55,366 nucleotides of DNA from Rozella allomycis CSF55 (Eukaryota). A program made the translations under genes and the position numbers. Shown piece by piece: positions 4,324 through 41,562 of the stretch. The notes beneath the pieces were generated by a model. That model ran no database searches and had not been told where the DNA came from. It saw only the letters and a list, made by a program, of their open reading frames with translations. Positions within the stretch are counted from its first letter, which is position 1; each line of letters starts with the position of its first letter. The stretch is taken from the NCBI GenBank assembly GCA_000442015.1, contig KE560765.1, forward strand, positions 1 to 55,366, given 5' to 3'.

Positions 4324-4436
4324 AATAAAATCATTTTTTATTGTACTTCTTCTTCAAATTGCAATCTATAAATAGCGTTTTCTGAGTGGGCGTTGGAACG
4401 AACCTAGTCCTACATTTGGCTTGGTAAGGTTTCTGG

Positions 4437-6071
4437 ATGTCTCGACTGCTAATCGGTTCCTCAGAATTTGCAGAATACTGCAAGAAAAACGCTATATTTG
4501 TCGACAAAACGCATTTTATTGAAGAGTTTATCGAAAGCTTTGCCAAGATTGAGCTTATCCTTCGTCCCCGTAGATTTTCGAAAAGCACTAACCTGTCCAT
4601 GTTAAAATCATTTTTCACCATCGGCACTGATAAATCTATGTTCAAAGGGCTGAAAATATACGAGAACTATGAATTGATGGATAAGTATTGTGGAGAGTAC
4701 CCTGTTGTTTTTCTTGACCTTAAAAATGTTATTGGTGAAACTTGGGAACTAACTTTATTGGAATTATGGAAGCAAATGAGATTGTGTGCAGCTATGCATA
4801 AAGATGCGTATCGTAAAATGGGGACAGATCCTTTTGCTGTTTGCGAAAAATACTTGGAAAGGAATGTTAGCTGCCCTGATTTGCACATTTTAGGCTCCTC
4901 GTTATTTAATATTACTTATGACCTTTATCAATATTACGGCAGAGAAGTAATTGTCCTTATTGATGAGTATGACACGCCTTTGAACAATGCTCATAGATTG
5001 GGTTTTTATGATAAAGCAGCAAAATTTTTCGCTTCTTTTTATTCTGAAGGGTTGAAAGGAAACAATGCAGTTGAAAAAGCATGTATTATGGGGATTGCAG
5101 AGTTGAGATGTGAGGGACTACCGGTTGGCCTTAACAATCTTAGCGTGAATTCATTTTCAACGGAAAGCTATTCTAGCTGTTTTGGATTTACCATAGATGA
5201 AATAAAGGAAAATTTTGAAGTGACTGACAATGACATTGAAAGACTTAAGGAATGGTACATTGGGTATTATTTTGGCGGAGATCAAGTGATAAATCCCTGG
5301 TCTATTGTGAATTGGTGGGATAATGAGAAAAGTTTTAACAGCTACTGGATTCAAACTTGTCAAACAGTCGAACTTGGAAAATTTCTTGGTGGCAATGAAC
5401 TAAAAATGCTTTATCCCTTGTTTTATCTGTTATATGAAGGTGATTCATACGAAATTGAACTATCACGCACTGCAGTCAACTACAATAATGAATGGAAACT
5501 GGAGAATATTATGACTTTTCTCGTTCTTACTGGTTATCTCACATATAATGAGAATAAAGTTAGGATTCCAAACAAAGAAGTCAAAGATTATTGGAAAGTG
5601 CATTTACTCCCACAATTTAATAAAGTTGTGAAAAATAAATACGGGAGGAGGATTCAAGACTTGTTCATGCGAGACAACTTGGACGTAAAGGTTTTGACAG
5701 ACATAATGACCGACACTCTAATGCATACTTCAGCTTATGATTTGGTCACAGAAGCTTCGTATCACTGTTTCTTCGTTGGGGTTTTTATGGCTTGCCTTAA
5801 TAGTGAGTACGAAGATATAACTATTTCTTCAAATAAAGAGGCTGGAAGAGAAATGTATGGCATAAACATTAAACTTTTTAAACCTAAGAAAGTGTGCATT
5901 TTTGGATTTAAGCATGTTCATTCTGAAAGGGATTTAAATCCTCAAGTTGCTTTACAACAAATTAAAGAAAAACAGAATTATCACATGTATCAAGGATTAG
6001 GGTACTCTATACACCTAGTTGGAGTTAGTTGCTACCAGAAGACGCTTGCTCTGGCGATTGATGAACTTTAA
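4437..6071 (+). CDS. Bacterial-type AAA-ATPase-like plus PD-(D/E)XK nuclease-like protein with degenerate motifs
   Basis: FVDKTHFI, RPRRFSKS (Walker A-like), VIVLIDEYDTP (Walker B), WYxGY, NPWSI, TGYLT, IPNKEV, EASYH, ALQQIKEK; intronless. Confidence 0.85.
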   Translation: MSRLLIGSSEFAEYCKKNAIFVDKTHFIEEFIESFAKIELILRPRRFSKSTNLSMLKSFFTIGTDKSMFKGLKIYENYELMDKYCGEYPVVFLDLKNVIGETWELTLLELWKQMRLCAAMHKDAYRKMGTDPFAVCEKYLERNVSCPDLHILGSSLFNITYDLYQYYGREVIVLIDEYDTPLNNAHRLGFYDKAAKFFASFYSEGLKGNNAVEKACIMGIAELRCEGLPVGLNNLSVNSFSTESYSSCFGFTIDEIKENFEVTDNDIERLKEWYIGYYFGGDQVINPWSIVNWWDNEKSFNSYWIQTCQTVELGKFLGGNELKMLYPLFYLLYEGDSYEIELSRTAVNYNNEWKLENIMTFLVLTGYLTYNENKVRIPNKEVKDYWKVHLLPQFNKVVKNKYGRRIQDLFMRDNLDVKVLTDIMTDTLMHTSAYDLVTEASYHCFFVGVFMACLNSEYEDITISSNKEAGREMYGINIKLFKPKKVCIFGFKHVHSERDLNPQVALQQIKEKQNYHMYQGLGYSIHLVGVSCYQKTLALAIDEL

Positions 6072-7819: not shown

Positions 7820-9405
7820 ATGACAAACCAATTCGCTACCACCATTTGCTGCATTGGAGCTGGATATGTGGGTGGCCCTACATGCTCCATTATTGCTGAT
7901 AAATGTCATGACGTTTTGGTATACATTGTCGACATTGACCAGACCCGAATCGACCAATGGAATAGCGACAAGCTACCTATCTATGAGCCTGGTTTGGATG
8001 ACATTGTAAAGAGACGCCGCGGACTCAATTTATTCTTCACCACTGACGTTGACACTGCCATCAATAAATCCGACATCATATTTGTCAGTGTGAATACCCC
8101 AACCAAAAAGTCGGGAATAGGCGCTGGGATGGCTGCTGATTTGAAGTATGATGGGTTTAACAATATAATAGGTACATTGAAAGTGCCACCAGAAGACTTG
8201 CCCAAGTTGCACAAAGCTCAAAGATTGTCGTAGAAAAGTCAACAGTTCCATGCAAAACAGCTGAAAGGTAGCAATTAATTTCAATGAATATACTAGCATG
8301 AGGGCGATTCTTGAATCAAATTCAAAGCCTGGTTTAAGATTCGATATTTTGTCAAATCCTGAGTTTCTTGCTGAGGGTAAATTCTACCATGTTTTTTAAA
8401 AGGAACTGCCATTCAAGATCTGCTCAATCCTGACCGTGTGCTCATTGGCTCTCTTCAAACCCCTGAAGGAAAGAAAGCTCAAGCTACACTTGCCGACTTG
8501 TACGCAAGATGGGTTCCAAGAGAAAAGATTATTACCATGAATTTGTGGTCATCAGAACTTTCGAAATTAGTAAAAGCCTCAGAAAATGTTAATAGGCTGC
8601 GAATGCAATGTTGGCGCAAAGAATATCCTCTGTCAATGCATTAAGTGCATTGTGCGAAGCCACAGGGGCCGATATTGATGAGGTGGCTTATGCAGTTGGA
8701 AAGGACACCAGAATCGGAAGCAAATTCCTTAAAGCAAGTGTTGGATTTGGAGGAAGCTGTTTTCAAAAAGATATTTTGAATTTAGTTTATCTTTGTGAAT
8801 CATTGAATCTTCATGAAGCAGCAGACTATTGGCGCCAAGTAAGCATCTATAATCAGCATAAAAGGTTATAACTATTAATGAATATCAAAAGAAACGATTC
8901 ATCCAAAGAATAGTAAAGTCGCTATTTAACACTGTTACAAATAAATCCATCGCAATTCTTGGATTTGCGTTTAAAAAGAACACCGGTGATACACGTGAAT
9001 CAGCTGCCATTTCATTGATCAAATATTTAATTGAAGAACAAGCACAAGTTCACATTTATGATCCTAAAGTTGAAGAGGAACAAATATTCTTTGACTTGAT
9101 TGAGCCAGGTGTTTATTCAAATGAAAATCAAGGTAATGCACTATAAAGTTCTTCATAAAGTGAAAAAGCTTGTAAAAGTTCATAAAGACGCTTACAGCGC
9201 TACTTTGAACACTGATGCTCTCGTCGTGTGCACAGAGTGGGATGAATTCACTAATCTTGACTATCAAAAAATTTATAATCAAATGAGAAAACCTGCCTTT
9301 GTGTTTGATGGAAGATTGATCCTTAATTCCGACAAGCTCAGAAAAATCGGCTTCAATGTTGAAGTGATTGGAAAAGTAGCTGGTCCAGTGACTGTTGAAA
9401 ATTAA
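7820..9405 (+). CDS. UGDH: UDP-glucose 6-dehydrogenase; 6 introns
   Basis: [46 protein letters not shown]. Confidence 0.97.
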
Positions 9406-9434: not shown

Positions 9435-10218
9435 TTATTGTCCAGATCTTAATTTCGCTAATCTTTCACCCAGTTCATCTTTTTCTTCCGTCTTCTTTTC
9501 CATTAATGACCCTGGTACACCCATGTCCATTTTAACTTCTAATCCATGTTCATCAGCTACTTGTTGGATCAATGTATCAACATCTTCCTGTGGAGTAGTT
9601 AAAGCTGTTGTGTTTCCAATGGAACCTTCCATGTACTGCGTTTGAACGTCTATATCCTCAAATTGCTTTTCAAATTGGTCCATAACCATTGATATTTTTT
9701 CAAGATTCATACTAGACATGGCTGCATCTAGACCTTTAACAACACCCGCCATATTTTGTGTAACCTATGTATTCTTTAGACAAATTTTACTTGGCGCATT
9801 GAGACTGCTGTTTGAACTCGAGAAGCGACTGAAAGCTAATTAACACATTAAAATTACCTGCATCAACTCTGGAAGATAGACGAAGCATATTTAGCCCCTC
9901 ATTCTTTTTTCTAATAGCATTTTGAGCATATATTTTGGCGCCTTCCATGTTACCTTGAAGATACAAGATATGCAACTCTTACCTTGTTGAATAGCCTTTA
10001 AACATAAATAATTGTTTCATACCTTTTTTAATTTCACTTTCTCCTTCGATTCATCTTTAGAACATCTTTTAGCATTGCTCTGAAGCTGCTTGGCAGTGAA
10101 CTACTACATAATTGTACCACGACGTACTTTTAAATTAAATAAGTGCTTTTAGTAAGTTAAGGAAATCACTCCAAAAGTGGTTATTATAAACAAAAAGGAT
10201 ATTCTCCATGTTACTCAT
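9435..10218 (-). CDS. CHMP1: ESCRT-III CHMP1/Did2; one U12-type and five U2-type introns, including a 13-nt micro-exon at 9983-9995
   Basis: Spliced N-terminus [40 protein letters not shown]. Confidence 0.93.
10148..10202 (-). other. U12-type (minor spliceosome) intron with AT-AA ends, 55 nt
   Basis: 5' end ATATCCTTT, branch site TTTCCTTAAC; removal restores GAG A|AG CAC (E-K-H). Confidence 0.85.
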
Positions 10219-10249
10219 TTTTGAAATTTACAGGATAGAAAGAAATAGA

Positions 10250-20617: not shown

Positions 20618-23600
20618 ATGTACCAGGTGCACCGTAAATGGACGCATTACAAAACATATCAAAGATTGCAAAAGCTGTGGAGTGATTTCCGGCAGGTTGC
20701 CGATAAAAAGTAATCATGAATTGAAGCAATGACGAGTGATGTTGACGCCATGTTGCTGAAGCTGCAGGATGTGATATCGTCTATCCAGGAGGCGTACCGG
20801 GTGTTTAATGACTGCAATGATTCATCGTTCTACCGGATTATTGATATGTGCAATGAGAAATTTTATGGCGAGTGGATGTCTGTGTTGCTGGAGCTGCTGG
20901 ATACAATTGAAAAGTAATGATGGGTGATTGGATAGAGTAGGGAGGCTGAGAAGGATGAGAAGCTGAGGAATAGCCGGATGAAAGTGTTGATTGATATTAT
21001 GAATAATTGCTTGGGTGTGGCTGAAGATTTGCTGAGGGATGAAAAGTATAGACCGGCGATTNATACGCCTGCGTTGTTTGAAAAGGTTATAGGATTGTTG
21101 GAGAGTCTTGATGGGGCTGAAGCGAAGAAGGTTGCTTTGAGGATGATTAGAGCGTTTGGGAGATCTGATGATAGCAAATTGGAGATTGGTAAGTATTTGG
21201 ATGACTTGGGATAAAGGAAGGATGGAAGGGTTTAAAAAGATATTGAAATTGGTTGTGCAAGGGGATCCAGAGTTGACGGCTGAGATTGTGAGGACAATAA
21301 AGCACTTGTCTACATCGAATGCAGAGTTGATAAGTAAAATAGAAGAGAAAGTAAATTGGTTGAAATGTCATAAAAGGTTTCGTTGGGAGAAAAGATGAGT
21401 TCAATTATTAATGAAGTGAAGGGGCTAGTGGTGCATGAAGTGTCTAGAATATTTGCGGTTCCAAATGAAAAGGAGAGTTTGGTGAGAAAAGGCGGGATGA
21501 ATCGATTCCAAACACCGAATAGTTTTGAGATTGAAGAGATGATGAAGAGATATGAGGGGGATGGAATTGAAACCCCTGAAGTTGAGATTGTTGATGAAAC
21601 GGTGCAAGAGTTTATGAGGGTTCAAGGAGCGATATCAGAATTGACGAGTATTTTGCATGAAGCGGTTGGCCATTTCGATATTTTTGAAACAATTTGTAGA
21701 TTGATATTCCAGAATGAAAGTAGCCAAAGAGAATTTAAAGAGATGCAGGGGTATGAATTACTGCTGGAAGGAATGGAGAAAATGGTTTTTGAAACATTTA
21801 ATGAAAAGGATGAATTTTTAAAAGTAAAATTGTTTAGCGTTAAAGAAAGGATTGTTTTAATTTATTGTTTACTGTGACGTTGGATGGAAATAAAGATAAT
21901 TTGATTGGCAATTTGGATGCATTGTTTTTGATTTGTCAGATGGCTGTTGGATCGAAGCATTTAAAAGTTAGAAAATGCGCGTTGGATTGTTTGCAAGATT
22001 TGTTGTCGTTTAATCCATTGAATGTTGCAGCTTTTATAAAGAGCGAGAGTATTAAAATTTTGTTGAAGAGAATTGAAAATAATTTGGAATGTTTAAATTT
22101 GATGAATTATTTGGCAGTTCTTTCTTGTCAGTTTGATTCAAATATTCTGGATGGCTATTTTAACATTATTTGTTCTTTTAATGCTAGAAAAGAATTGATT
22201 GATTCATGTTTCTTATTAATCAAAGTAAATTAATTAAATTTGTTGGAAAAGGATTATTTTTATAGAGATATTAAAATAAACAATCGCTATTTGGAAATGA
22301 TTTTAACATTTTTAAACAATGAAATTTCAAACTATGCCACCAATGATGAGATTCCCATCAATCCAATTCAAGTTGAATCTGAATCTAAAACCAATTCTCA
22401 ATTAAAGATTGATGAGAATCTCATTTATTCATATTTAAAGTTGATTGCATTGTTAGTTTTAGAGAGAAAAGATTTGACAAGAGAAGACTTTGAATTGCAT
22501 GGGGGATTCAATGTTTTATATTTCGCTTTAACCTTTTCAAACAAGGAAATTTCAGAAATAGTCTTTTTCATTTTGAATCAAATTTTAAAATGTCCAGAAA
22601 ACAATTTCAGTATTTATGAATGGCTTATAAAGATATTTAATGATATTGATAACAAATATTTGTGCTACTATCTCCAAGACATGAATGACTATGCTATTGT
22701 AGGTAGACTGGTTGAAAGTGATTTGCTGACCATTTCATTGACTAAAATAAAGGCTGGTGTTAATAAGAGAGAGTGGATAAAAACTTTGATTGTGTTGATG
22801 ACTAGTGATAAAGTGAAAGATGTTTTGGAAGAAAGAATTGGATTGGAATTGGTGTATGATATATTAGTAAACTCTGCGAGTATTGAAAAGTAAATGATTT
22901 TATGTTTAATGAATAGAATTTGCTGGGTGGCTATTTTAGAATTGTGTACAGAAGGTGGCTTGGCCTATTCAATTCCAGGGTTTAAAGAAGTGAAAAAGGA
23001 GAAAAAGATTGATTATAAAGAGATAGAAGTATTGATGAATGCTGAATTGATGTTTGTTGGAACATTAGAGTTGACTGAACCAAGAAGACCAAATTTCACC
23101 AAAAACAAAGAAAAGGGACATACGCTACCAAAAGTGAACAAGAAGAGTAATGCAAGTGCTAAAAGCCAAAGTGTTAAAAGCCATTCACGAAGACATTCGC
23201 TGGATTCTTCAATAGAAGGTAACAATAGATGTTTTGATTAAAAGAACCAAAGCAAGTAACAAAGGAAATTAAATCAATGTCAATTCAATTAACGCCAACA
23301 TTTGAGTTGCCGTGTTTTGATTCAATTCAATTTGAAAGAAATTTATCATTTTATTCATTTAGAAATTTTAGAATTCGTAATAAAAATTGTTGTGAAATTA
23401 TCATAAAATTAATTGAAAGATTGCAAGGGTCACATTTAACAGATTTGTTACAAATAATGCATTTTCTGTTGGAATCTAATCCAATTAATTGTTTGTATTT
23501 TTCAGATTTGAAGTGTTTTAAAATTTTGTTTTCTATTTATCCAATTTCTAAACAAATAATTTCAACTCTTTTTTCATTTAGATTTAGTGAGGCTGAGTAT

Positions 23601-37006: not shown

Positions 37007-37887
37007 TTAAGCGCGATCTTGGATTTCCTTCAAACGAAGAGCTTCCTTCTTTGCTTGTTTGATCATAGCCTTGTGTCCCATGATACCACCGCCCCATTGT
37101 CTACGAACTTCATCAAACTTGTCATTGTAGTTTGCCTTGACAGCTGAAACAAGGGCGTTCAATTCTTGCTTGTCTTCAGCTTTAACTTCAGTCAAAGCCA
37201 AAGCAGTAGCGGTCTTCTTATGCACAACGGTTCCGAGACGAGCCTTTCCCTTGACGATAGCATATGGAACTCCCATCTTGCGGCAAAGAGCTGGCAACCA
37301 GACGACCAATTCAATTGGATCAACATCATTAGCAATGAGAACAAGTTGAGCCTTTTTGTTTTCAATCAAGGCAGTGATATGGTTCAATCCGTACTTGACC
37401 ATAACTGGCTTCTTTCCTTGGTTGACAGTCTTTCCTTCAGCAACTTGTTGAGCAGCAGAAGCAAGTCTCTCCTTTTTCTGGATTTTGGTTTCTGGACGGT
37501 ACTTGTTCAACAATTTAAATGCTTGGGTAGCTATAAATAAAAGAAAATATGTTTAAATACCAGTGTTCTTATCCAAGACACGAGTGAATTGGTTGATGGA
37601 TGGTGGAACCTTTAAACGCTTCTTGAGAACAGCACGTTGTCTTTGCAAACGAATGTAAAATGGCCACTTGATGACGCGAGAAAGATCGCGCTTTGGCTGG
37701 ATGTCTTGACCGATTCCAAAGTTGCGTGGTGTTTTTTCAACCAAAGGATTTACAGCCTTTTTAACTGGTTTCTTGCTTTTGATTGGAGCAGATGCGACTT
37801 TTTTGGAAACCTGGAATTAATATTTGCTTATTTAATAGATTTTTAAATAAATTTGAATAAAGAATTTAAAGTAACTGTTCCTACCAT
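37007..37887 (-). CDS. RPL7A: 60S ribosomal protein eL8 (L7a); 2 introns
   Basis: [36 protein letters not shown]. Confidence 0.97.
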
Positions 37888-38123
37888 TTTTTTCTGCAAG
37901 GGTTGGGAGGCTGGGTAATTCAGAAAATGTAGAAATTTTGGACAAGTTGAAAATGCGCAAACTTTAAGTGTTGAATGTGAAATATATTTAAATTAAATAA
38001 AGTGATAAGAATATCAATAGGTTACAAGTGATGATCATGGATGCTTGAGATATTTTTTCTTTAGGAAATTTCTAAAACATAATTTCATAAACTAATATAA
38101 TATAGAAAGGATTTAACATTGGT

Positions 38124-40264
38124 TTATTCAGAAAGAGTGCGAAACTTTTCTTCAATTTCTTTTGCTAATTTTTGATAGCGCTCAATTAGAGTGCTTTCAC
38201 CATCAGCTGGATCCTAAGTTGAAAAGAGAAGAATAAATGTACTTCAAACTTCATAGAGCTTAATTTGTAGATTAAATCGCCCATTCCATCTTTAATTCTG
38301 GCCCAAGAAAGAGAGCCACCAGAAGTTTCAATTGCATGCACAGCTTGATTGTAGAAACCAATCATGTTTCTGAGCATCCAAACAGTTTTATAGAATGGAC
38401 AATAGCGATCATAATTAGAGTAACCATTTTGTTGTAAGAAATCATCTTTAATAATTTTAGCGACTTCCAGGGTGACTTTATCAGATTCAGCCAAAGCAGA
38501 TTTTCCAACTAATTGAACAATTTCAGATAAATCTTCTTCAGTTTGTAAAATTTCTTTGCATTTTGTTCTTAAAGAAACAAATTCAGAATCAAAATTTTCA
38601 TAGTAAGGATCTAACGCTTTCATGTATTTGGAATAACTGAGAGACCAATTAACAGAAGGGAAATGTTTTCTTTGAGCCAATTTCTTATCTAAACCCCAAA
38701 ACACTTGAACAATTCCAAGGGTTGCTGAAGTGACTGGATCTGAAAAATCNGGGTTGCTGAAGTGACGGGATCTGAAAAATCACCACCAGGGGGTGAAACT
38801 CTATTTTTATTTAATTTAAAATTAATTTACGCTCCAACAATGCTAACACTTCCTTCTCTCTGTGGATTACCAAGACAAACAACTTTCCCTGCTCTTTCAT
38901 AGAATGAAGCTAAACGTGCACCCAAATAAGCTGGATATCCACTATCAGCTGGCATTTCAGCTAAACGCCCAGAAATTTCACGCAACGCTTCAGCCCATCG
39001 TGATGTACTATCAGCCATCTTATTAATAAACAAATTCAATTCTTACCATTGCTACATTCTTTCCTTGATCTCTAAAATACTCAGAAAGAGTAATTCCAGT
39101 ATAAATAGACGCTTCTCTAGCAGCTACTGGCATATTTGATGTATTCGCAACAAGAGTCGTTCTATTCATAATACTCACATCCGCTCCCTTGTGTTTAATT
39201 GATAAACTTGGAAAATCCATCAAAACTTCAGCCATTTCATTTCCTCTCTCTCCACACCCAACATAAATAATAACATCTGAATTTGAATATTTAGATAACG
39301 ATTGCGAAATCACAGTCTTTCCACACCCAAACGCACCTGGAATAGCTGTAGTTCCTCCTTGCACACATGGAAACAATGCATCCAACACTCTCTGTCCTGT
39401 CAACAATGGATAATCAGCTGCCAACTTTTCAGAAACTGGTCTTGGCGTTCTAACAGGCCACACTTGCATCATCGTGTATTGACTCTTTTGTCCCATAAAT
39501 TCTGTCTCCAAAACAACATCATTCAACGTGTAACTTCCTTGTGGCGCTATATACGTAATAGTCCCCTTGGCCTTTGGTGGCAAGATTATGTTATGCTCAA
39601 CCAGCGTGTTTTCATGCACAATTCCATAAATGTCACCTCCAGTAACATGATCTCCAACCTTTCTTGTCTCATATTTAAATTTACTCTCAATTTTCCAGGC
39701 ACAAATTCCCATGATACAGTCTTATCCAACGCTGATGTATTTATTCCTCTGGGAATGTAAATACTTTTAGATGCATCTTGAATAGCCTTTCATTAAATAA
39801 CACATTCCTTACTTTGAGTGGTCGTTGAATCCCATCATATATATTACTACACAAACCAGGTCCCAATTCAACAGACAAAGGCTGTCCAGTCTTCAAAACA
39901 GGATCCCCAATCGTCAATCCAGCTATTTAACACCACCAACTCTTCTTACACGTTTCCTCATAAACCTGTATAGTTGCTTTATCTCCTTCTATTCTAATCA
40001 CCTCTCCAACCAATTCCAAATGCCCTACACGCACCTATACCACACTCCTCATCCTATTACCAATTCATACATGGCAGATCCAGTCATATTCTCAGCTATC
40101 ACAACTACTTTCCTCACATCCACAAACCATACCTGGCCCAGACACCGAATACACATATCCATACTCATACGCATGCAATTCCGAATCAAGGATTTTCGGC
40201 AACTCCCTTTTAGCGTTCTCCAGTGCTCCTGCCTTGATTCATCGCCATTCATTACAATTACCAT
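38124..40264 (-). CDS. VMA1: V-ATPase catalytic subunit A; about 8 introns; no intein
   Basis: [46 protein letters not shown]. Confidence 0.97.
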
Positions 40265-40365: not shown

Positions 40366-41562
40366 ATGAATTTTCCCGCTTGGTCAACTATAGAAAGCGA
40401 GCCGGCGATATTCACGGGAATCTTGCAGGAACTCGGTGTGCAGGATGTCAAGGTGGAGGAAATATACTCGCTTGACAAGTCCAGCTTTGATCCGTTCGAG
40501 TACGCTCTTGGTGTTTTGTTGTTAGTGTAGTCTATGGACTGATATTCTTGTTCAAGTGGAATGAAGATGCAAACAAGGCAAAAGCAATTAGTGTTTGCGA
40601 AAATAATGTTTATTTTGCGAAACAGATCGTTGATAACGCGTGTGCGACGCAGGCTGTTTTGAGCATTGTGTTGAATAGAGATGATGTTAGTATTGGAGAT
40701 GATTTGCTACAGTTTAAAGATTTGACAAGGAATCTTACACCACAAGTAATTCTTTAGTGGTCAAGTGAAAGGAAAAAGGAGCGGCGATTGGGAGATCAGA
40801 ATTATTGAGGAAAGTTCATAACAGTTTTACAGCGTAATTATATTTATAAAGATTTTTCAGCAATTTCGAAACCGAAAATAATTACAGAAGGGAAAAATCG
40901 ACCAAGAAAACTCGTGAAATGCAAGTTGAATATGATGCATATCATTTCATAGCCTACGTTCCCGTTAACGGATATCTTTTTGAATTAGATGGACTGAATA
41001 ACGGNNNNNNNNNNNNNNNNNNNNNNNNNNNNNNNNNNNNNNNNNNNNNNNNNNNNNNNNNNNNNNNNNNNNNNNNNNNNNNNNNCGACTGGCTAGATCT
41101 CGCAATCCCATGTATCATTCAACGCACATGTATGTATGAATCTTCAGAAATACGATTCAATTTAATGGCTCTAATTAAAGATAAACGAATCCAGTTTAGC
41201 AATATTCTCGAAAAAATCCAAACGTTGATTCAGGACTCTCAACTTGAATTGTCTAATGAAGAGAACAGCTTTTATGAAAAAATGATTCTCAAAGAAGACG
41301 CAAATTATTTAAGAGAATTTTTGAATAGCCTGGAAGGTAATGAAAAGGCGAAATTTTTGGCCTCGTTGAATGGAACCTTTAGAAAATTCTCAAATAAATT
41401 AACTAATGAGCAAGACATTTTGAAATCATATCAAGTAATAGTCTTCAATAAAACTTATAGGACAATAATCAGAGAATGAAGAAAGGTTATGCAGAGTTTA
41501 TAAAAGAGTACATCAAAATTTTACACAAGAATAATGAGCTACAGGATTTAATAAAAGGTTAA
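40366..41562 (+). CDS. UCHL5: Ubiquitin C-terminal hydrolase UCH37/UCHL5; 4 introns; spans an N gap
   Basis: WSTIESEP, GLIFLFKW, QIVDNACATQA, YHFIAYVP, FELDGL, IRFNLMA. Confidence 0.9.

What the first reader, a model, noticed from the sequence alone, without database searches (positions are those of the whole stretch)
10148..10202. U12-type intron with AT-AA termini in CHMP1
Seen on the minus strand: ATGAGTAACATGGAGA|ATATCCTTTTTG...GATTTCCTTAACTTACTAAA|AGCACTTA. It has the U12 5' consensus and a perfect U12 branch site. Of the nearby candidate ends, only AA gives MSNMEKHLFNLK; AC or AG ends hit TAA. At 55 nt it is twice the U2 intron size. Established: Dikarya and microsporidia lack the minor spliceosome, and AT-AA is a rare U12 subtype. 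Inference: this reduced genome keeps a minor spliceosome with a larger minimum intron size.
Basis: partly seen in the sequence, partly recalled or inferred. Interest (0 to 1): 0.8.

Follow-up and report, generated by a model that had tools for sequence, protein, structure and literature searches.

The report
U12-type intron in Rozella CHMP1
The first intron of the CHMP1 gene of the parasitic early fungus Rozella allomycis carries the signals of the rare 'minor' splicing system, at a position that some animal genes share, which suggests that this compact genome still keeps that second spliceosome.

Summary
On the minus strand, 10202..10148 is a 55-nt segment that starts ATATCCTTT and has TTCCTTAAC ending 8 nt before its end. 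Removing it with AT-AA ends joins a 16-nt first exon to the rest of a CHMP1/Did2 gene and restores MSNMEKHLFNLKF. Protein hits name the window a Rozella allomycis CSF55 contig. The public gene model starts at Met45, so it misses this intron and four exons. The gene's other five introns are GT-AG and 26-29 nt long. Among 80 CHMP1 loci from metagenomes, 11 have an intron at the same phase-1 position. Its 5' end is visible in 7 of them: GTATCCTTT in three (two distinct sequences, animal-like) and ordinary GT in four. This is most likely an ancient U12-type intron. Not tested: minor snRNAs or proteins (no genome held) and the spliced junction (no RNA data). The claim of a larger minimum size rests on one intron. 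U12 introns are already known in other early fungi, and AT-AA is the commonest non-canonical subtype. I rate it a new member of a known kind, of moderate interest.

The parts
10203..10218 (-). CHMP1 exon 1 (16 nt; ATG at 10218-10216; ends after the first base of codon 6)
10148..10202 (-). Intron 1: 55 nt, U12-type signals, inferred AT-AA ends, phase 1
   Evidence: The frame argument comes from reading. The position is shared with L056, L069 and others.
10194..10202 (-). 5' splice-site box ATATCCTTT
10156..10164 (-). Branch-site box TTCCTTAAC, ending 8 nt before the intron end
10128..10147 (-). Exon 2 (20 nt; completes codon 6, then HLFNLK)
10101..10127 (-). Intron 2, GT-AG, 27 nt (position shared with L012, L015, L058)
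10023..10100 (-). Exon 3 (78 nt)
9996..10022 (-). Intron 3, GT-AG, 27 nt
9983..9995 (-). Exon 4 (13-nt micro-exon)
9954..9982 (-). Intron 4, GT-AG, 29 nt
9858..9953 (-). Exon 5 (96 nt; the public model P0241 starts here at Met45)
9829..9857 (-). Intron 5, GT-AG, 29 nt
9791..9828 (-). Exon 6 (38 nt)
9765..9790 (-). Intron 6, GT-AG, 26 nt
9435..9764 (-). Exon 7 (109 codons plus TAA stop); Snf7-family match

Best explanation
10202..10148 (minus strand) is a genuine U12-type (minor-class) intron. It is the first intron of the CHMP1/Did2 (ESCRT-III) gene of Rozella allomycis. Inferred mechanism, from established knowledge of minor splicing: U11 snRNA pairs with the ATATCCTTT box and U12 snRNA with TTCCTTAAC, bulging a branch adenosine. 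The 3' site is chosen by its short distance from the branch (9-10 nt), and an A pairs with the A at the 5' end (AT-AA subtype). Splicing joins GAG A to AG CAC, giving a 196-residue CHMP1 with a complete first helix. The intron is ancient: it sits at a phase-1 position that is also U12-type in two animal-like CHMP1 genes and has ordinary U2-type signals in other lineages. Shown here: the sequence signals, the frame requirement and the positional conservation. Inferred: actual splicing at these ends, and the presence of U11, U12, U4atac and U6atac and their proteins in Rozella.
For: (1) The 5' box ATATCCTTT and the branch box TTCCTTAAC fully match the consensus as I recall it. The gap from the branch box to the end is 8 nt, and there is no pyrimidine tract. 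(2) Only this excision, or a 2-nt shifted variant, keeps the frame; retention or an AC or AG end meets TAA (reading). (3) The spliced model is 196 aa. Its first 44 residues align to 16 of 16 CHMP1 homologues tested at 52-77% identity. Residues 45-196 are identical to the public protein P0241. Its first 13 residues equal those of the solved CHMP1B chain printed. (4) 11 of 80 metagenome CHMP1 loci have an intron at the same codon position and phase. The 5' end is on the contig in 7. It reads GTATCCTTT, with a TTCCTTAAT or TCCTTTTAAC box 15 or 12 nt before CAG, in L056, L065 (same motif coordinates as L056) and L069. It reads GTGAGT, GTGAGC or GTACGC in L020, L050, L058 and L079. (5) All five other introns of the gene start GTA, end AG and are 26-29 nt long, so this intron differs from the local major class in both signals and size. 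(6) Minor introns and minor snRNAs are reported in several early-diverging fungal lineages (passages of PMC10639083, and of PMC11347168). AT-AA is the commonest non-canonical minor subtype (PMC10639083, section 30).
Against: There is no transcript evidence. No minor snRNA or minor-specific protein of Rozella could be looked for, because no genome is held, and the 55-kb window holds none. The motif pair, loosely defined, turns up in 93 of 1000 shuffled windows. An AG lies 2 nt past the proposed AA end, at a branch distance (11-12 nt) that I recall as nearer the usual optimum; using it with the normal 5' site would break the frame. Only one such intron was found in the window (relaxed scan), so there is no second local example. 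The branch box of L069 (TCCTTTTAAC) departs from the consensus.
Confidence: 0.75

Rival explanations
1. It is the same intron, but both boundaries lie 2 nt downstream (10200..10146, ATCC…AAAAG). The ends would be AT-AG in phase 0, and residue 6 would be N instead of K.
For: This reading is also in frame (reading). N occurs at this residue in some homologues, for example MENH in L009, L019 and L027 and MENA in P0033. The AG end lies 11-12 nt from the branch adenosines.
Against: As I recall the rule, U12-type cleavage falls directly before the RTATCC box, and here that is 10202. All 11 loci with an intron at this site have it in phase 1, after the first base of the codon. K is the commoner residue.
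Confidence: 0.07
2. It is a U12-like intron removed without a classical minor spliceosome. Rozella would have lost some or all minor snRNAs, and the major or a hybrid machinery would excise it.
For: Passages of PMC11347168 (section on a non-canonical spliceosome) raise this possibility for species with minor-like introns in which not all minor snRNAs are detected. Rozella is described as a sister lineage to Microsporidia (passage of PMC8476143), which I recall as lacking the minor system.
Against: Both boxes fully match the consensus in an AT-rich genome whose ordinary introns have been squeezed to 26-29 nt, which points to continued selection by U11 and U12 pairing. All five ordinary introns of the gene start GTA.
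Confidence: 0.08
3. There is no intron here. The motif pair is chance, the gene starts at Met45 as in the public model (152 aa), and the upstream 'exons' are not expressed.
For: The public annotation P0241 starts at Met45. A loose motif pair arises in about 9% of shuffled windows.
Against: Four short upstream exons, joined at the U12-type junction and three exact GT-AG junctions, give 44 residues that align to 16 of 16 homologues at 52-77% identity and start with ATG. Solved CHMP1B chains align from residue 1, so the first helix is part of the fold. The intron position is shared with 11 other loci (and others).
Confidence: 0.03
4. A sequence or assembly error creates the apparent AA end.
For: The window has 18 runs of N (17 single bases and one 81-N gap), so the assembly is not finished quality. 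The end lies in a run of four A.
Against: Adding an A to the run still leaves an AA end, because exon 2 must begin AGCAC to keep the frame (reading). Only a substitution would change the subtype.
Confidence: 0.02

Closest known systems
U12-type introns of the AT-AA subtype in animals and plants (PMC10639083, section 30, read in full)
   Same: An A at both ends together with the minor-class 5' and branch boxes. The paper describes AT-AA as the commonest non-canonical minor termini in both kingdoms.
   Different: Here it occurs in a fungus-related parasite, is only 55 nt long, and has no transcript support yet.
Minor introns of early-diverging fungi (Rhizophagus irregularis n=205, Basidiobolus meristosporus n=249, Spizellomyces, Neocallimastigomycetes; passages of PMC10639083, and PMC11347168)
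   Same: A minor-class intron in a non-Dikarya lineage of Holomycota, with consensus boxes like those of animals and plants.
   Different: Rozella/Cryptomycota does not appear in the main text of either paper (0 occurrences). The ordinary introns of this genome are far shorter.
Minor introns of Blastocystis (passage of PMC10639083: mean just under 42 bp, median 39 bp)
   Same: Short minor introns in a genome with very short introns.
   Different: A different supergroup. Blastocystis has hundreds, mostly AT-AC; here a single AT-AA intron of 55 nt was seen in 55 kb.
GT-AG U12-type first intron of animal-like CHMP1 genes on metagenome contigs L056/L065 and L069
   Same: Same gene, same codon position and phase (GAR A | AR ...), with a U12-type 5' box and a branch box 12-15 nt before the 3' end.
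   Different: GT-AG rather than AT-AA ends, and lengths of roughly 0.7 kb and 2.2 kb rather than 55 nt.

Membership tests
U12-type (minor-class) spliceosomal intron | 5' splice site box [A/G]TATCCTT starting at the first intron base (consensus recalled) | tested here: met
   ATATCCTTT at 10202-10194
U12-type (minor-class) spliceosomal intron | Branch-site box TTCCTTRAY close to the 3' end (consensus recalled) | tested here: met
   TTCCTTAAC at 10164-10156
U12-type (minor-class) spliceosomal intron | Short branch-to-3'-site distance (about 10-20 nt, recalled) and no pyrimidine tract | tested here: met
   8 nt (TTACTAAA) lie between the box and the junction, so the branch adenosines are 9-10 nt from the end. 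That is the short edge of the range.
U12-type (minor-class) spliceosomal intron | Terminal dinucleotides of a known minor subtype | tested here: inconclusive
   AT-AA is inferred from the reading frame and homology only. A 2-nt shifted AT-AG reading is also in frame. AT-AA is a known subtype.
U12-type (minor-class) spliceosomal intron | Orthologous position occupied by U12-type introns in other lineages | tested here: met
   L056, L065 and L069 have GTATCCTTT at the same phase-1 position. They are 3 of the 7 loci whose 5' end is visible, among 11 of 80 loci with an intron there.
U12-type (minor-class) spliceosomal intron | Excision by U11/U12/U4atac/U6atac snRNPs present in the same genome | not testable with these tools
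   No genome is held. The window holds only two tRNAs at Rfam gathering scores and no minor snRNA down to E=10.
U12-type (minor-class) spliceosomal intron | Spliced junction seen in RNA | not testable with these tools
CHMP1/Did2 (ESCRT-III, Snf7 family) | Snf7 domain and full-length similarity to CHMP1 proteins | tested here: met
   The last exon matches PF03357 at E=1.7e-05, 25 bits, below the 27.3-bit cut-off for this fragment. The spliced model is 57-73% identical to 16 homologues over nearly its full length. P0241 is named charged multivesicular body protein 1b.

The most novel reading that the evidence does not exclude
Rozella allomycis belongs to the lineage described as sister to the Microsporidia, and its ordinary introns are squeezed to 26-29 nt. 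It nevertheless keeps a working minor spliceosome and ancient U12-type introns. The CHMP1 intron has been U12-type since before fungi and animals split. Because the public gene model skips it, annotation-based surveys would undercount minor introns in compact genomes like this one. A bolder add-on with only n=1 behind it: minor introns here cannot shrink below about twice the major-intron size, because the U11/U12 di-snRNP must span both boxes.
Probability: 0.65. Interest if true: 0.5.

Novelty: new member of a known kind. Interest (0 to 1): 0.4.

Why it matters
If transcripts and snRNA genes confirm it, loss of the minor spliceosome on the microsporidian line would be dated to after the split from Rozella. 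It would also add a second case, after Blastocystis, of minor splicing surviving in a genome with extremely short introns. It corrects a public gene model: CHMP1 is 196 aa, not 152. It gives a concrete example of how non-canonical ends and micro-exons hide minor introns from annotation-based surveys. The shared position with animal CHMP1 genes, which reads as an ordinary U2-type intron in other lineages, is a clean example for studying conversion of minor introns into major ones.

Tried and rejected
Whole-genome search for minor snRNAs and proteins: impossible, because no genome is held.

RNA evidence: no RNA holder was listed.

Rfam on the window: at gathering scores and at E up to 10, only two tRNAs and weak chance-level hits.

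Other U12-type introns in the window: the four other RTATCCTT sites lack a branch box. In a relaxed scan, the candidate at 8623(+) lies inside the conserved coding sequence of UDP-glucose dehydrogenase. By comparison with the ORF list, most other relaxed hits are antisense to the local long ORF, and the one at 808(+) lies inside an open ankyrin ORF.

Close relatives for intron-motif conservation: the metagenome scan gave no CHMP1 locus above 68% identity, so within-lineage conservation could not be tested.

GT-AG alternatives: from the GT at 10214, both nearby AG ends give stops (reading).

Minor-spliceosome proteins of Rozella: not searched, because no query sequence could be obtained from a tool.

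Literature: 'chmp1' + 'minor intron' gave 0 papers. 'chmp1' + 'u12' gave 10 papers. In the one read (PMC9828640, passages) the two terms are unrelated, and none of the other nine titles or abstract openings concerns minor splicing of CHMP1. 'rozella' + 'u12' gave 0. 'cryptomycota' + 'u12' gave 0. 'rozella' + 'minor spliceosome' gave 1, on Polycomb, judged unrelated from its title and not opened. In a six-term search, none of the 40 listed papers holds 'rozella'.

Full report
**The observation.** After ATGAGTAACATGGAGA comes ATATCCTTTTTG…GATTTCCTTAACTTACTAAA, then AGCACTTATTTAATTTAAAAG. One search places the segment at 10202..10148 (55 nt) and the start codon at 10218-10216. Reading the sequence, keeping the segment gives a TAA after 27 codons. 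Ending it at the nearby AC or AG also runs into TAA. Ending it at AA joins GAG A to AG CAC and yields MSNMEKHLFNLK.

**The gene.** With this intron and five GT-AG introns of 27, 27, 29, 29 and 26 nt removed, seven exons (16, 20, 78, 13, 96, 38 and 330 nt) encode 196 residues.
- The last exon matches the Snf7 family.
- It finds CHMP1/Did2 proteins, with early-diverging fungi at the top at 63-67% identity (334 hits among 684 candidates, 120 listed).
- The first 44 residues of the spliced model align to 16 of 16 homologues tested at 52-77% identity.
- The whole model is 57-73% identical to those homologues.
- The solved CHMP1B chain printed begins with the same 13 residues.

**The organism and its annotation.** A V-ATPase A exon from the window hits 'V-type ATPase [Rozella allomycis CSF55]' at 99% identity. 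That protein's longest contig is 55366 bases, which is the window length. The CHMP1 exon hits 'charged multivesicular body protein 1b [Rozella allomycis CSF55]' at 100% identity. That public protein has 152 residues and starts at Met45. It equals residues 45-196 of my model. The public model therefore lacks exons 1-4 and the intron in question, and no 196-residue version was among the longer hits.

**Chance.** RTATCCTT occurs 5 times in the window (4.73 expected) and TCCTTAAC 3 times (1.73 expected). Only at 10202 do the two occur together. A loosely defined pair appears at least once in 93 of 1000 dinucleotide-preserving shuffles. The motifs alone are thus only mildly unusual. The case rests on where the pair sits: exactly at the one junction that a conserved protein requires.

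**Comparative evidence.** A metagenome scan gave 80 CHMP1 loci, none closer than 68% identity.
- In 43 loci the N-terminal coding sequence is uninterrupted. Many of these contigs are about 1 kb.
- In 26 loci no N-terminal motif was found.
- In 11 loci an intron sits at the same place and phase: L020, L050, L056, L057, L058, L065, L069, L071, L072, L077 and L079.
- These counts combine. The script scored L050 as uninterrupted and missed L058, and I corrected both by inspection.

The 5' end of that intron lies on the contig in 7 of the 11 loci.
- L056 reads GAA A|GTATCCTTT … TTTCCTTAAT, then 15 nt ending in CAG, then AG AAC CTA TTT. L065 has the same motif coordinates.
- L069 reads GAA A|GTATCCTTTT … TCCTTTTAAC, then 12 nt ending in CAG, then AA CAT TTA TTC.
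- These are two different animal-like genes. Of eight test queries, the closest was a scorpion CHMP1b.
- L020, L050, L058 and L079 have GTGAGT, GTGAGC or GTACGC at the same position.

The position is therefore old. It is U12-type in at least three lineages counting the window, and reads as an ordinary U2-type intron in others. That is the pattern expected for an ancestral minor intron that was converted where it was not retained.

**Local intron landscape.** In a scan for GTA…AG segments of 18-60 nt that join two open frames, 80 of 320 candidates are 26-29 nt long (30, 20, 16 and 14). Every other length has between 1 and 13. A tblastn of the annotated V-ATPase protein on the window shows gaps of similar size between its pieces. 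At 55 nt, the CHMP1 intron is about twice the usual size. No second U12-type intron was found in the window.

**Mechanism (inferred).** From established knowledge of minor splicing, U11 pairs with the 5' box and U12 with the branch box. The 3' site is then picked by distance. Here the branch adenosines are 9-10 nt from the AA end, at the short edge of the usual range. An AG two bases further on would be at a more typical distance but would break the frame with the normal 5' site. AT-AA is described as the commonest non-canonical minor subtype in animals and plants (PMC10639083, section 30, read in full).

**What is not shown.** No genome is held. The window itself holds no minor snRNA. The presence of a minor spliceosome in Rozella is therefore inferred from the intron alone. 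The idea of a larger minimum size rests on one intron. Passages of PMC10639083 report that minor and major intron lengths correlate across species, and that Blastocystis minor introns have a median of 39 bp.

**Literature.**
- Passages of PMC10639083 and PMC11347168 report minor introns and snRNAs in Glomeromycota, Zoopagomycota, chytrids and Neocallimastigomycetes, and none in Dikarya. Neither main text mentions Rozella, and their supplements were closed.
- Searches pairing Rozella or Cryptomycota with U12 found 0 papers.
- Pairing CHMP1 with 'minor intron' also found 0 papers.
- PMC8476143 (passages) gives Rozella 2.5 introns per kb and does not mention U12.

**Verdict.** It adds a lineage and an unannotated example to a known kind, rather than being a new kind of system.

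Noticed in passing
window 9435-10218 (-): The public protein for this gene (P0241, 152 aa) starts at Met45. The homology-supported model has 196 aa and four more exons, including micro-exons of 13, 16 and 20 nt.
   Followed up: yes
window 10219-10249: Only 31 nt separate the CHMP1 start codon (10218, minus strand) from the likely start codon (10250, plus strand) of a divergent OSTalpha/TMEM184-like transporter gene (PF03619). CHMP1 intron 1 lies 48-102 nt upstream of that ATG, so it may overlap the neighbour's promoter. This could bear on why the intron is long, but was not tested.
   Followed up: partly
window 37010-40168 (-): The public protein P0125 (841 aa) fuses V-ATPase subunit A with a ribosomal L7Ae-family protein. 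This looks like two adjacent genes merged by annotation.
   Followed up: partly
window 10101-10127 (-); L012, L015, L058: The second CHMP1 intron (after LFNLK, phase 0) is also at a position shared with other eukaryotic CHMP1 loci.
   Followed up: partly
window 4428-6071 (+): A 547-codon open frame matches PF09820 (predicted AAA-ATPase) and PF08011 (PD-(D/E)XK nuclease). I recall this domain pair as mostly prokaryotic, so it is a possible gene-transfer candidate.
   Followed up: no
window 41005-41085 and 17 single positions: The window holds an 81-N gap and 17 single N bases, so the assembly is of draft quality.
   Followed up: no
window 22343-22427, both strands: A weak Rfam hit to a plant microRNA precursor model on both strands (31 and 29 bits, against a gathering score of 80). 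This is probably just an inverted repeat.
   Followed up: no
P0004 and P0007: The annotated CHMP1 proteins of Catenaria and Batrachochytrium have aberrant N-termini that diverge at or just after this intron position. This hints that gene callers also stumbled there.
   Followed up: no
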